A stretch of DNA of 64,000 nucleotides. Source: Dictyostelium discoideum (Eukaryota). The stretch lies in contig CM000154.2 in assembly GCA_000004695.1 (NCBI GenBank), forward strand, positions 2,176,001 through 2,240,000. Direction: 5' to 3'. Made by a program: the position numbers and the translations under genes. Below, in pieces: positions 3,762-6,568 of this stretch. The notes under the pieces are model-generated. The model ran no database searches and was not told the origin of the DNA. It was given only the letters and a program-made list of their open reading frames with translations. How positions within the stretch are numbered: the first letter of the stretch is position 1; the number at the start of each line of letters is the position of its first letter.

Positions 3762-6568
3762 ATGGATAATACAAATAATAAAATTCATTTTAACCAAAGT
3801 AATATTAATAACCAAGACAATAACAAAAATAATAAAATATATCCAAATAATTTTCCAAATTCACATAACCTAAATCCTCAAATATATAATAATAATAATA
3901 ATAATAATAATAATAATAATAATAATAATAATAATAATAATAATAATAATATTAATAATAATAATAATAATTGTAATAATAATAATAATAATTGTAATAG
4001 TAATATAAATAAAAGTGTTAGTTATAATGATTTTTTATTTATAAACAATAATATAAATAATAATAATAATAATAATAATAATAATAACTCAAATATACCA
4101 ATGGCAAAAAGTTTTGATAGTTTACAATTAATTTCTACACCTTTAAATTTCCCTCAAATTGAATTCCAAAATCTTATTCCACCTGCGCTACAACATCACC
4201 AACATCCACAACAACAACAACAACAACAACAACAACAACAACAACAACAACAACAACAACAACAACAACAACAACAACAACAACAACAACAACAACAACA
4301 ACAACAACAAAAAAATGAAAATGGACAAGATTTTAATCTTTATGGTTCTCAAAATAGTTTTTCAAACTCTGTTGAATCTTTAAGTTCATATTTATCCGAC
4401 ATGTCACCTAATAGATCTGATTCCTCTAATGTTTCACTCTCTCCTCCCGTTCATAATCCAAGTTCACCAAAGATACCAATTTCTAAAAAGGTTTCAAAAG
4501 TTAAAGCAAAAACTTTAAAGGTTGGTGAAACTGAACTTAATAAATTAAATAAAAAAGATAACACCAAAAGAAAAAAAACATCAAAAAATTATAAAAAATT
4601 AAGAGATATTGGATTATCTATTATAAATACATCATCATCATCAACAATTGAAACACCAACAATTATGATAACTACACCCGATACAAATAACACAAACCCC
4701 ACAACTACAACTACTACTACTACAACCACAACTACAACATCAAATAGTGATAGCTCAAATTTTGAAAATGATAATAGTCAAGATGAAATTATTAAAAAAA
4801 CTCAACCAATTAAAAAATTAAAGGTAAAAGATAATCTTAAATTATCATTTATTACGGATAAATTTTCAAATTATTTAAAAGGGAGGGGAATTTTTTATTA
4901 TTATCAAGGTATGGAACCATTTGAGTTTGATAGTCATGAATTGGCTAATCATCTTGATGTAAATGAAGTAAAAATGTCTTCTGTCTTGGAAATATTGAAA
5001 ATTCTTGGTCTTGCTGAAAAAGAAAGAGAGAGAGAAAGAAAAGAGAGAGAAAAGGAATCAAATAAAGATGGTGATTCTGATAATGAAAGAAAGAAGCCAT
5101 GTCAAATACCCTCAATGAACAAATGGATTTGGCATGGCATAAATAGTAATATGAATTTAACATTTCTCCATAAAATATATCATTCAAATATCAGAGGTTT
5201 ATACGCTTGTGATTGCTGTAAATCTAAAGAAATCTCTGAAGATGAAACAGCATTGGTTGCAAAGAAAATGAGTGACTTTTTTGTTCACTTTTTATTTAGA
5301 AACATTGGTAATGTAAGTGTCATTGAATTACTATAATATTTAATTATTTTTTTCAATTTTACTAATTAGTATTATATATTTTATATTTTAAATTATAGTC
5401 TATAACAATGAGAGATCTTATTACATATTTTAATAATACAAAACCAAAAGATAATAATTTTTTAAATGAACAAAGAAATACAAGTAAAATCAAAAGAGTT
5501 TATGATATTACCAATGTTCTAAGTCCATTAGGTCTAATCCGTAAAACCAAATGTCCAAGAGATAGTAGCGATTCTGAGGATGGTAAAAAGATAAATTCTG
5601 TTGAATACAGATATCAATGGATTGCCGAATATGGTTATACATTTGCTAAAAACAATTGTCCATATATCAATGGAAAAGTCACCACTTCAAAAACTACAAC
5701 CACAACAACCACTACCACAACCACTTCAAACAATAAAAATAATAATAACAATAACAACAATAATAATATTAATAATAATAATAATAATAACAATAATATT
5801 AATAATAATAATAACAATAACAATAATAATAATAATAATAATAATAATAATAATAATAATAATAATAATAATAATAATAATAATAATAATAATAATAATA
5901 ATAATAATAATATTAATAATAATAATAGTAGTAATAATTTTGATAATGGTATTGAAAATTTTTATTTAAATAATAATAATATATTTGATACATTTAAATT
6001 TACAAAAAGTTCTTCATCATCATCTCCAACTTCATCAACTTCTTCAACACCAAGATCAAGTAATTCACATATATCTGCCTCTACTTCACCAACATCTGTC
6101 AATACTTTAGTGTCTTTGTTTACTCCAACAATTGAACCATCTCAATCAGAATTATCTTCAATAAATACATCAAATTTTAATACTGGTGTTCCAGATTTTA
6201 CCTCAAATCCATTATCATTCCTCACAACCGACCAAATATATCAACTCCATGAACAATTCATAAACCATCAACAACAACAACAACAACAACAAAATCATCA
6301 TCATCATCATCATCAATTACATCAACAACAACAACAACCCCAACAACCTCAACAACATCAACCTCAACAACAACAACAACAACAACAACAACTACAACAA
6401 CAACAACAAACTCAACAACCTCATCAACAACAATTCCAAAATCAACAACATCATTACCAACAATCCAACTTAAAAAATGATATTCATCAATTCGATATGG
6501 ATCAAATTGAACATGAAAATAACCAAAACAATGAATACACCAACAGATTTTACTTTTATTTAAATTAA
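3762..6568 (+). CDS. E2F-family winged-helix transcription factor, probably atypical (E2F7/8/DEL-like) with two DNA-binding domains; Asn/Gln-rich
   Basis: The CDS is join(3762..5312, 5399..6568). The intron runs 5313-5398 (GTAAGT ... TATAG, phase 0), and the frames of the two ORF-track ORFs reconcile exactly across it. Exon 2 carries KIKRVYDITNVLSPLGLIRK, which matches the E2F recognition helix (RRIYDITNVLEGI). Exon 1 carries a second, degenerate winged-helix ending NKWIWHG (compare E2F7 NQYGWHG). There are long polyN and polyQ tracts. The start follows an A-run Kozak context (aaaaATGG). Confidence 0.7.

What the first reader, a model, noticed from the sequence alone, without database searches (positions are those of the whole stretch)
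3762..6568. E2F-like factor with two tandem winged-helix DNA-binding domains (atypical E2F7/8/DEL architecture) in an amoebozoan
Exon 2 carries a near-canonical E2F recognition helix (KIKRVYDITNVLSPLGLIRK). Exon 1 carries a second, more degenerate E2F-type winged helix ending NKWIWHG. Atypical E2Fs bind DNA without DP partners and act as repressors. The intron falls between the two DBD halves. The gene is also heavily loaded with polyN and polyQ.
Basis: partly seen in the sequence, partly recalled or inferred. Interest (0 to 1): 0.5.

Follow-up and report, generated by a model that had tools for sequence, protein, structure and literature searches.

The report
Divergent two-domain E2F-like gene in Dictyostelium
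This is a real two-exon slime-mould gene for a very divergent relative of the "atypical" E2F7/E2F8/DEL cell-cycle transcription factors: its second DNA-binding domain is intact and its first has lost the DNA-reading residues, which makes it a modestly interesting variant rather than a new kind of protein.

Summary
The gene model holds. It is 3762-5312 plus 5399-6568 on the + strand, with an 86-nt GT..AG phase-0 intron, and encodes 906 aa. An NCBI assembly calls the same 906-aa product.

- **Pfam result.** Pfam finds only one E2F_TDP domain (aa 507-568, 31.9 bits). It finds no dimerisation/marked-box domain.
- **Second winged helix (WH2).** It carries K-R-V-Y-D and scores best against DBD2 of E2F7/8/DEL.
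- **First winged helix (WH1).** It is invisible to Pfam and matches plant/animal DBD1 only weakly. It matches DBD1 of three published dictyostelid DEL proteins (DfasDEL, PpalDELa, PpalDELb). HMMER gives 13.8 bits, reached by 0 of 5000 shuffles. hhalign gives 27.0 against a null of 11.3±2.4.
- **Whole core.** It aligns colinearly to those proteins over both domains and the linker (Prob 95%).
- **Degeneration of WH1.** RRxYD is replaced by V-K-M-S-S, and a 31-aa charged insert sits in the wing.
- **Intron position.** The intron lies inside DBD2, after helix 1, not between the domains.
- **Database searches.** No homologue appeared in the large protein databases.

Published surveys list no E2F7/8 for D. 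discoideum. My verdict is a new, degenerate variant of a known family. Function as a DP-independent binder, possibly a repressor, is inferred only. Interest is about 0.3.

The parts
3762..5312 (+). Exon 1 (aa 1-517). Contains N-terminal low-complexity tracts, a basic cluster, WH1, the linker and helix 1 of WH2.
   Evidence: Open frame of 517 codons from the ATG at 3762 in a 21% GC window. Donor GTAAGT at 5313. The same span is called as one 906-aa gene in GCA_054883475.1.
5313..5398 (+). Intron: 86 nt, GT..AG, phase 0, 11.6% GC. It lies inside the second winged helix, between its helix 1 and helix 2.
   Evidence: The Pfam E2F_TDP match, aa 507-568, spans the junction at 517/518. Read-through hits a stop after 8 codons.
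5399..6568 (+). Exon 2 (aa 518-906 plus stop). Contains the rest of WH2, then polyT/polyN, a Ser/Thr-rich stretch and a Q/H-rich tail.
4551..4604 (+). Basic cluster KKDNTKRKKTSKNYKKLR (aa 264-281). Possible nuclear localisation signal (inference only).
   Evidence: Read from the sequence. Not tested.
4827..5138 (+). WH1, a degenerate DBD1-type E2F winged helix (aa ~356-459).
- Helix 1: LKLSFITDKFSNYL, 4836-4877.
- Helix 2: SHELANHL, 4932-4955.
- Helix 3: VKMSSVLEILKILGLAEK, 4968-5021. V-K-M-S-S sits where the family has R-R-x-Y-D.
- Wing strand: MNKWIWHG, 5115-5138.
   Evidence: - No Pfam E2F_TDP hit, only weak generic wHTH hits: TrmB E 0.05, DUF4423 E 0.04-0.1.
- Against the dictyostelid DEL DBD1 HMM: 13.8 bits, 0 of 5000 shuffles reach it.
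- hhalign: 27.0 (P 2.6e-4) against dictyostelid DBD1, and 21.8 (P 1.9e-3) against plant/animal DBD1. In both cases 0 of 200 shuffles reach the score.
- Not similar to DBD2, DP or canonical E2F (P 0.09-0.26).
- Top hit of that HMM among 82 window ORFs.
- Keeps 9 of 23 family-conserved positions, including L, KF, W and G, but not R, R, Y, D or N.
5022..5114 (+). 31-aa highly charged insert (ERERERKEREKESNKDGDSDNERKKPCQIPS, aa 421-451) in the wing loop of WH1. It is absent from every reference E2F/DP/DEL domain used here.
   Evidence: hhalign, MAFFT and BLASTP all place one gap of this size exactly between helix 3 and the wing strand.
5169..5231 (+). Inter-domain linker with a His/Cys cluster (HKIYHSNIRGLYACDCCKSKE, aa 470-490).
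   Evidence: Aligns to IFHSSRNY..FVCENCKHHH in the linker of PpalDELb. The significance is unknown.
5244..5312 (+). WH2 helix 1 (ETALVAKKMSDFFVHFLFRNIGN, aa 495-517), encoded at the end of exon 1.
   Evidence: Aligned to the EKSLxxLSQxFVxLFL helix of DBD2 by the tandem HMM and by hhalign.
5399..5635 (+). WH2 helices 2-3 and wing (aa 518-596).
- Recognition helix: KIKRVYDITNVLSPLGLIRK, 5486-5545, with K549-R550-V551-Y552-D553.
- 20-aa insert: 5546-5605.
- Wing strand: YRYQWIAEYG, 5606-5635.
   Evidence: - Pfam E2F_TDP 31.9 bits, E 1.1e-7.
- Best PDB match is E2F8 DBD2, 4yo2.
- HMM scores: DBD2 29.5 bits, canonical E2F 17.1, DBD1 11.8, DP 10.9.
- hhalign scores: 53.0, 43.8, 30.8 and 27.7 in the same order.
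- Its nearest neighbours by distance are all DBD2 domains.
3888..4310 (+). N-terminal homopolymer tracts: polyN at 3888-3950 and 4056-4088, and a 34-residue polyQ at 4209-4310.
5693..6391 (+). C-terminal low-complexity region: polyT 5693-5725, polyN blocks 5738-5911, and Q/H-rich runs 6269-6391.

Best explanation
The gene encodes a fast-evolving member of the atypical, DP-independent E2F lineage (E2F7/E2F8 in animals, DEL in plants, DfasDEL and PpalDELa/b in other dictyostelids). One polypeptide carries two E2F-type winged helices in the order DBD1-linker-DBD2.

DBD2 (aa ~495-596) keeps the DNA-reading motif as K-R-V-Y-D, together with the conserved N, W and hydrophobic core. It is the likely sequence-specific reader of a CGC-type E2F half-site.

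DBD1 (aa ~356-459) keeps the fold-defining positions: the L..KF of helix 1, the L..LGL.EK end of helix 3, and the N.W.W.G wing. It has replaced R-R-x-Y-D with V-K-M-S-S and gained a 31-aa charged insert in its wing.

The most likely mechanism follows from this. DBD1 packs against DBD2 as the intramolecular partner, as in the E2F8 pseudo-heterodimer. It contributes at most backbone contacts, so the protein binds DNA without DP and reads a half-site or an altered site.

Shown here: the gene model, the DBD2 identity, the homology of DBD1 to DEL-type DBD1, and the absence of the dimerisation/marked-box domain and of the pocket-binding motif.

Inferred only: DNA binding, DP-independence, intramolecular pairing, nuclear localisation and any repressor role.
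For: **Gene model**
- Supported.

**DBD2**
- Pfam E2F_TDP is above the gathering score.
- The best solved-structure match is E2F8 DBD2.
- It ranks first against DBD2 models by HMMER, hhalign and BLOSUM distance.

**Tandem architecture**
- One colinear hhalign alignment of the 271-aa core covers positions 5-207 of a 208-column DBD1-linker-DBD2 model of animal/plant atypical E2Fs (Prob 94.5%, E 7.8e-8).
- A second covers positions 3-184 of the dictyostelid DEL model (Prob 95%, E 3.5e-8).
- BLASTP to PpalDELb runs from WH1 through the Cys-containing linker into WH2.

**DBD1 tested alone**
- 13.8 bits against dictyostelid DBD1, with 0 of 5000 shuffles reaching it (maximum 9.0).
- hhalign 27.0 against a null of 11.3±2.4, and 21.8 against 10.6±2.2. 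In both cases 0 of 200 shuffles reach the score.
- The match is specific to DBD1; DBD2, DP and canonical E2F are not significant.
- It is the top hit among 82 real window ORFs.

**The bridging sequences are genuine two-domain E2Fs**
- Each has two Pfam E2F_TDP stretches at about 100 bits.
- The joint profile hits E2F8 (4yo2) at E 4.5e-23 in two colinear stretches.

**Missing canonical features**
- No E2F_CC-MB or DP domains.
- No EGIxDLF motif.

**Literature context**
- DELs are listed for P. pallidum and D. fasciculatum but not for D. discoideum or D. purpureum (PMC4862756, source data file 4).
- D. discoideum has three orphan E2F_TDP genes besides e2f and tfdp2 (PMC6873476).
Against: - Pfam sees only one E2F_TDP domain even at E up to 10.
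- WH1 adds almost nothing to the tandem hhalign score: 55.0 against 53.1 for DBD2 alone.
- hhalign probability for WH1 alone is only 42% against dictyostelid DBD1 and 14% against plant/animal DBD1.
- Inside its full ORF the WH1 domain score is 8.7 bits, against a noise ceiling of 4.8.
- The dictyostelid DBD1 profile rests on three sequences.
- Shuffles do not model unrelated real winged helices, and WH1 also gives weak TrmB/DUF4423 wHTH hits.
- Two single-sequence AlphaFold runs failed (pLDDT 39 and 50), so there is no structural confirmation.
- No orthologue or paralogue could be retrieved, so conservation and selection on WH1 are unknown.
- The loss of RRxYD argues against DBD1 being a DNA reader at all.
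Confidence: 0.7

Rival explanations
1. It is a single-domain E2F-like orphan. Only WH2 derives from E2F. The upstream segment is an unrelated generic winged helix-turn-helix, or not a domain, and its resemblance to DBD1 is convergent or due to chance.
For: - There is one Pfam E2F_TDP hit only.
- WH1 gives weak TrmB/DUF4423 hits.
- WH1 against canonical E2F and DP profiles is at noise level.
- hhalign probability for WH1 alone is at most 42%.
- The AlphaFold runs were uninformative.
Against: - The WH1 signal is specific to DBD1 profiles and beats all shuffles.
- All elements occur in the family order with family hallmarks: the L..KF of helix 1, LGL.EK, and the N.W.W.G wing. It keeps 9 of 23 conserved positions.
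- It sits exactly where DBD1 sits relative to DBD2.
- The linker also aligns to PpalDELb.
Confidence: 0.17
2. It is a decaying or functionally released duplicate. The gene is a lineage-restricted copy drifting away from E2F function. The loss of DBD1 contacts and the invasion by homopolymer tracts reflect relaxed constraint, and it no longer acts as a sequence-specific transcription factor.
For: - No homologue was found at E up to 10 in 5.8 billion sequences, or at E up to 0.001 among 1.84 billion representatives.
- RRxYD is lost in WH1, and the first Arg is replaced by Lys in WH2.
- About a third of the residues are N or Q.
- The orphan E2F_TDP genes of D. discoideum have no orthologues in four other dictyostelids (PMC6873476).
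Against: - A 906-codon frame with a clean phase-0 intron is intact in a 79% AT genome, where stops arise easily.
- WH2 keeps 13 of 23 family-conserved positions, including R, Y, D, N and W.
- Homopolymer tracts are ordinary in Dictyostelium proteins (general knowledge).
- Two of the three orphan E2F_TDP genes of D. discoideum (DDB_G0272264, DDB_G0288967) are listed as prespore-expressed (PMC6873476, Table 2). Which one this gene is could not be established.
Confidence: 0.1
3. It is a canonical E2F or DP paralogue that still works as a heterodimer with DP or E2F.
For: WH2 also matches canonical E2F profiles well (hhalign 43.8, P 1.4e-7). DITNVL is the canonical E2F spelling.
Against: - No coiled-coil/marked-box or DP dimerisation domain at E up to 10.
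- No pocket-binding motif.
- WH2 ranks with DBD2 ahead of canonical E2F, and far ahead of DP, in three measures.
- The sequence differs from DdisE2F and DdisDP as printed in PMC4862756.
Confidence: 0.03

Closest known systems
Dictyostelid DEL proteins DfasDEL, PpalDELa and PpalDELb (Medina et al. 2016, eLife, PMC4862756, source data file 4). [quoted passage not shown] 2019 (PMC6873476).
   Same: - The order DBD1-linker-DBD2 is the same, and the domains sit late in a protein with a long low-complexity N-terminus.
- DBD1 helix 3 ends in LG[LV][VA].KE, followed by a N.[YW].W.G wing.
- DBD2 has K[RK]R.YDI.N[IV]L..LG.I and a Y.Y/F.QW wing.
- PpalDELb shares a His/Cys cluster in the linker.
- These are the best profile matches for both domains together.
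   Different: - Their DBD1 keeps R-R-F-Y-E and is recognised by Pfam, with two stretches at about 100 bits. Here it is V-K-M-S-S and Pfam does not see it.
- This protein has a 31-aa charged insert in the DBD1 wing, a 20-aa insert in the DBD2 wing, and a long polyN/Q C-terminal tail.
- Identity over the core is only 21-25%.
Animal E2F7/E2F8 (structure 4YO2 of E2F8 on DNA) and plant DEL1-3/E2Fd-f
   Same: - Two E2F-type winged helices in one chain, with no DP-dimerisation/marked-box domain and no pocket-protein-binding tail.
- DBD2 signature: TK[IV][RK]R[LV]YDI.NVLS.L.LI.K, followed by an insert before the wing.
- From established knowledge of the family, these proteins bind E2F sites without DP and repress.
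   Different: - Both DBDs of E2F7/8/DEL carry RRxYD; here only DBD2 does, as KRVYD.
- The linker is shorter.
- No conserved sequence lies outside the DBDs.
- DNA binding and repression are untested.
Canonical E2F (D. discoideum e2f, DDB_G0284129) and DP (tfdp2, DDB_G0276799)
   Same: The same winged-helix superfamily (Pfam PF02319). WH2 shares YDITNVL with canonical E2Fs.
   Different: - Canonical proteins have a single DBD plus a coiled-coil/marked-box dimerisation domain. E2F also has a C-terminal EGISELY-type pocket-binding motif (visible in DfasE2F and DpurE2F).
- None of these features is present here.
- WH2 scores lower against canonical E2F and much lower against DP than against DBD2.

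Membership tests
Atypical E2F (E2F7/E2F8/DEL) | A second (C-terminal) E2F/DP-type winged helix of the DBD2 type | tested here: met
   - Pfam PF02319 31.9 bits, above the 25.7 cut-off.
- It ranks first against DBD2 models: HMMER 29.5 bits, hhalign 53.0 with P 1.9e-9, and nearest neighbours that are all DBD2 domains.
Atypical E2F (E2F7/E2F8/DEL) | A first (N-terminal) E2F-type winged helix in the same polypeptide | tested here: inconclusive
   - Not detected by Pfam at E up to 10.
- Detected with DBD1-specific profiles: 13.8 bits with 0 of 5000 shuffles reaching it; hhalign P 2.6e-4 and 1.9e-3 with 0 of 200 shuffles each.
- It is the top window hit at i-E 0.008.
- The alignment is colinear over the whole domain.
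- There is no structural confirmation.
Atypical E2F (E2F7/E2F8/DEL) | RRxYD DNA-contact motif in both DBDs | tested here: not met
   DBD2 has K549-R-V-Y-D553, a conservative change at the first position. DBD1 has V403-K-M-S-S407 at the aligned positions.
Atypical E2F (E2F7/E2F8/DEL) | Absence of the DP-dimerisation (coiled-coil/marked-box) domain | tested here: met
   No E2F_CC-MB or DP family hit on the full 906-aa protein at E up to 10.
Atypical E2F (E2F7/E2F8/DEL) | Absence of the C-terminal transactivation/pocket-protein-binding motif | tested here: met
   Regular-expression search for EG[IV].[DE]L[FY] and D[YF]..[FLW].L found nothing. The test is motif-level only.
Atypical E2F (E2F7/E2F8/DEL) | DP-independent binding to E2F sites and transcriptional repression | not testable with these tools
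   This needs EMSA, SELEX, ChIP and reporter assays.
Canonical E2F1-6 | Single DBD followed by a leucine-zipper/marked-box dimerisation domain and a pocket-binding tail | tested here: not met
   No such domains or motif were found. There is also a second upstream winged helix.
DP (TFDP) | DP-type winged helix (RRRVYDALNVL) plus a DP dimerisation domain | tested here: not met
   DP is the weakest of the four profiles for WH2 (10.9 bits; hhalign 27.7) and is at noise for WH1. There is no DP domain in Pfam.

The most novel reading that the evidence does not exclude
In group-4 dictyostelids the ancestral DEL-type factor has turned its first DNA-binding domain into a non-reading 'pseudo-DBD'. RRxYD is lost and a charged wing insert is gained, but the domain still pairs with DBD2. 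The protein therefore recognises an E2F half-site or a new asymmetric motif and has been rewired away from the classical Rb/E2F cell-cycle programme, for example towards prespore/spore gene control. This would be a natural example of how a two-headed E2F evolves new specificity by disabling one head.
Probability: 0.3. Interest if true: 0.45.

Novelty: new variant of a known kind. Interest (0 to 1): 0.3.

Why it matters
Published inventories of the Rb/E2F network give Dictyostelium discoideum one E2F and one DP and no E2F7/8-type factor (PMC3224931; PMC4862756; PMC3386910). A transcription-factor census lists three further 'orphan' E2F_TDP genes without assigning them (PMC6873476).

This gene is probably one of those orphans or its orthologue. 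Showing that it has the DBD1-DBD2 architecture, and that it links to the DEL proteins of P. pallidum and D. fasciculatum, would mean the atypical branch was retained across Dictyostelia rather than lost in group 4.

It would also give a tractable model organism a natural variant in which one of the two heads has lost its DNA-contact residues. That is useful for asking what each head of E2F7/8 contributes. This refines a known family; it is not a new principle.

Tried and rejected
1. **Homologue searches.**
   - The word-indexed search of 5.8 billion proteins with the 271-aa core found nothing at E up to 0.01, and nothing again at E up to 10.
   - Full HMMER of the exon-1 part against 1.84 billion representatives found nothing.
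   - The exact 906-aa sequence is not in the collection.
   - So no orthologues, no paralogue, no selection analysis and no deep alignment for structure prediction were possible.
2. The spliced protein cannot be handed to the structure, representative-search or contig look-up tools, because it is not contiguous in the window.
3. **AlphaFold2.**
   - The exon-1 part (173 aa) and WH1 alone (111 aa), both run without an alignment, gave pLDDT 39 and 50.
   - Both models are unusable, so no fold search was run.
   - I did not run AlphaFold with plant DELs as the alignment, because the result would be dictated by that alignment (circular).
4. **Generic profiles for WH1.** Pfam E2F_TDP, a canonical E2F HMM and a DP HMM give nothing above noise for WH1.
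5. **Paralogue in the window.** tblastn with the core, the dictyostelid DELs, E2F and DP found only this gene.
6. **E2F sites.** One TTTSSCGC occurs in 64 kb, inside a RasGAP ORF, against 0.6 expected. This is not informative.
7. **dictyBase identifier.** I could not pin one down. No paper text holds DDB_G0272264 or DDB_G0282499.
8. **Syntenic copy in a second assembly.** The neighbouring 1035-aa protein is on record only in GCA_054883475.1. The actin gene is too far away and multi-copy.
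Full report
**1. What is in the sequence**

The region lies in a 21% GC window with the look of a Dictyostelium genome: poly-A before the ATG, very AT-rich short introns, and polyN/polyQ coding tracts.

- The ATG at 3762 opens a 517-codon frame ending at a GTAAGT donor at 5313.
- An 86-nt intron (5313-5398, 11.6% GC) ends in TAG.
- The frame continues in phase 0 from 5399 to the stop at 6566-6568.
- The product is 906 aa. Read-through of the intron hits a stop after eight codons.
- Looking up the neighbouring 1035-aa ORF placed the window on NCBI assembly GCA_054883475.1, record CM142511.1 (5.29 Mb). The gene called at the matching position there has the same span and a 906-residue product, with no Pfam family on record.

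KIKRVYDITNVLSPLGLIRK is aa 547-566 and MNKWIWHG is aa 452-459. N is 22% and Q 11% of all residues.

**2.

Pfam on the spliced protein gives one E2F_TDP match only: aa 507-568, 31.9 bits, E 1.1e-7, gathering score 25.7. There is no second stretch even at E up to 10.

No E2F_CC-MB or DP domain was reported on the full protein at E up to 10. A motif search finds no EGIxDLF-type pocket-binding tail.

The upstream region gives only weak generic winged-helix hits: TrmB at E 0.05 and DUF4423 at E 0.04-0.1.

The best solved-structure match of the 271-aa core (aa 345-615) is E2F8 (4yo2), through its DBD2. HMMER also printed a sub-threshold piece pairing MNKWIWHG with KNRYTWHG at the end of E2F8 DBD1.

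**3. No relatives in the large databases**

- The core found nothing in the 5.8-billion-sequence collection at E up to 0.01, and nothing again at E up to 10.
- The exon-1 part found nothing among 1.84 billion representatives.
- The exact protein is not in the collection.
- The spliced sequence cannot be submitted to the structure or look-up tools.
- Two single-sequence AlphaFold runs failed, with pLDDT 39 and 50.

The question therefore had to be settled with reference sequences taken from the literature.

**4. Reference sets**

The source data of Medina et al. 2016 (PMC4862756, file 4) supplied human E2F1-8 and DP1-3, and DEL, E2F and DP proteins of Guillardia, Giardia, Lottia, Phytophthora and Arabidopsis. 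A search with Arabidopsis DEL3 added 120 plant DELs.

That file lists only E2F and DP for D. discoideum and D. purpureum. It does contain DfasDEL, PpalDELa and PpalDELb, from D. fasciculatum and P. pallidum. Each of these three has two Pfam E2F_TDP stretches at about 100 bits in total, so they are bona fide two-domain atypical E2Fs.

**5. The second domain (WH2)**

| Profile | HMMER | hhalign |
|---|---|---|
| Atypical DBD2 | 29.5 bits | 53.0 (P 1.9e-9) |
| Canonical E2F | 17.1 bits | 43.8 |
| Atypical DBD1 | 11.8 bits | 30.8 |
| DP | 10.9 bits | 27.7 |

In a joint alignment the six nearest neighbours of WH2 are all DBD2 domains: Arabidopsis, human E2F7/8, Guillardia, Giardia and PpalDELa.

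WH2 keeps 13 of 23 family-wide conserved positions, including R, Y, D and N of the recognition helix and the wing W. The first Arg of RRxYD is Lys.

The profile alignments place helix 1 of this domain (ETALVAKKMSDFFVHFLF) at the end of exon 1. The intron therefore splits DBD2 after helix 1. It does not separate the two domains.

**6. The first domain (WH1)**

Against plant/animal profiles the signal is weak:
- HMMER gives 4.1 bits against DBD1. In two independent shuffle runs, 10 of 2000 and 26 of 5000 shuffles reach this score.
- hhalign gives 21.8 (P 0.0019). The alignment covers the whole domain, with one 29-residue gap placed exactly in the wing loop.

Against the three dictyostelid DBD1s the signal is clear:
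- HMMER gives 13.8 bits. None of 5000 shuffles reaches it; the maximum is 9.0.
- hhalign gives 27.0 (P 2.6e-4) against a shuffle null of 11.3±2.4, with 0 of 200 shuffles reaching it.
- The plant/animal DBD1 hhalign score also beats all 200 shuffles, whose null is 10.6±2.2.

The match is specific. WH1 against DBD2, DP or canonical E2F profiles is at noise, with P between 0.09 and 0.26.

As a control with real proteins of the same composition, I scanned the 82 stop-to-stop ORFs of at least 80 aa in the window (16.8 k residues). The dictyostelid DBD1 model ranks WH1 first (8.7 bits, i-E 0.008) and WH2 second; everything else scores 4.8 bits or less.

The whole core aligns in one piece to the tandem model of animal/plant atypical E2Fs (positions 5-207 of 208, Prob 94.5%). 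It does the same to the dictyostelid DEL model (Prob 95%, E 3.5e-8).

BLASTP to PpalDELb runs from WH1 helix 2, through NKWIWHG/NEYYWVG and a shared Cys cluster in the linker (YACDCCKSK against FVCENCKHH), into WH2.

A profile of the candidate plus the three DELs hits E2F8 (4yo2) at E 4.5e-23 in two colinear stretches. That score is carried mainly by the DELs.

**7. How WH1 is degenerate**

In the joint alignment WH1 keeps 9 of 23 conserved positions:
- the L and KF of helix 1;
- the A and L of helix 2;
- the L..LGL.EK end of helix 3;
- the W and G of the wing.

It has V-K-M-S-S where the family has R-R-x-Y-D, and E where the family has the following N. A 31-aa run of alternating charges (aa 421-451) is inserted between helix 3 and the wing strand.

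By established knowledge of the E2F4-DP2 and E2F8 DNA complexes, the two arginines of RRxYD read the guanines of the CGCG core. WH1 is therefore unlikely to read bases in the family's way.

**8. Interpretation**

The best reading is a fast-evolving DEL/E2F7/8-type factor with an intact DBD2 and a pseudo-DBD1. The likely mechanism is inferred, not shown:
- WH1 pairs with WH2 within the molecule, as in E2F8.
- WH2 supplies the sequence-specific contacts.
- The protein acts without DP.

Whether it represses is unknown. The basic cluster at aa 264-281 may be a nuclear localisation signal.

I hold the two-domain homology at about 0.7-0.8 and the mechanism lower. The caveats are that the DBD1 evidence rests on a three-sequence profile, that shuffles are not decoy winged helices, and that there is neither a structural model nor an orthologue.

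**9. Relation to what is published**

- Cao et al. 2010 found E2F1-6, DP and Rb in D. discoideum, and E2F7/8 only in Monosiga, animals and plants (PMC3224931).
- Strasser et al. 2012 name one E2F and one DP (PMC3386910).
- Forbes et al. 2019 report five E2F_TDP proteins in D. discoideum (PMC6873476):
  - e2f and tfdp2;
  - a tfdp2-related gene, DDB_G0288967;
  - 'a set of 2 genes unique to Ddis', DDB_G0282499 and DDB_G0272264.

This gene is neither DdisE2F nor DdisDP by sequence. It is most likely one of the three orphans or its orthologue. I could not determine which.

What I did not find in the papers searched is the link between such an orphan and the group-1/2 DEL clade, or its two-domain reading. 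This is a refinement within a known family, so interest is modest.

Noticed in passing
window 5169-5231 (aa 470-490): The linker between the two winged helices carries a His/Cys cluster (HKIYHSNIRGLYACDCCKSKE). It aligns with IFHSSRNY...FVCENCKHHH in the linker of P. pallidum DELb. That stretch of PpalDELb gave a weak Pfam hit to the Herpes_UL52 primase family (E 0.0013, below the cut-off). It may be a small metal-binding element specific to dictyostelid DELs.
   Followed up: partly
window 5022-5114 (aa 421-451): A 31-residue run of alternating Glu/Arg/Lys followed by an acidic stretch is inserted in the wing loop of WH1. No reference E2F, DP or DEL domain used here has an insert at this point. 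A 20-residue Ser/Asp-rich insert sits at the equivalent place in WH2 (5546-5605).
   Followed up: partly
window 6982-10089 (+): The next gene downstream is an intronless 1035-aa ORF rich in polyN/Q/T, with no Pfam family. Its exact product is on record only in assembly GCA_054883475.1 (CM142511.1, 5.29 Mb), which is how the window was placed.
   Followed up: partly
window 17093-21136 (+), 30848-32977 (-), 60776-63844 (-): Three more long ORFs (1347, 709 and 1022 aa) have no Pfam match at E up to 0.001. They are uncharacterised, lineage-restricted proteins.
   Followed up: no
window 22914-25058 (+): This ORF has RasGAP plus RasGAP_C domains (IQGAP/DGAP-type). The only TTTSSCGC (E2F-consensus) match in the whole 64 kb lies inside it at 23748-23755. 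One match against 0.6 expected is consistent with chance.
   Followed up: yes
window 35609-38077 (-), 55068-56648 (+), 58318-59448 (-): Other recognisable neighbours are an SMC_N-domain protein, a choline-transporter-like protein and a 376-aa actin. The identical actin product occurs on several contigs of two assemblies, GCA_054883475.1 and GCA_054859205.1, as expected for the multi-copy Dictyostelium actin family.
   Followed up: partly
whole window: ARAGORN found no tRNA genes in the 64 kb. No second E2F/DP-like sequence was found by tblastn with the candidate core, the dictyostelid DELs, canonical E2F or DP domains.
   Followed up: yes
databases, not the window: The 5.8-billion-protein collection returned plant DELs readily but no relative of this protein at E up to 10, and the exact product is absent from it, even though a 906-aa gene call exists on an NCBI assembly. 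Either the source proteome is not in that collection, or the protein has no detectable relatives there. Absence of hits should not be read as strong evidence that the gene is an orphan.
   Followed up: no
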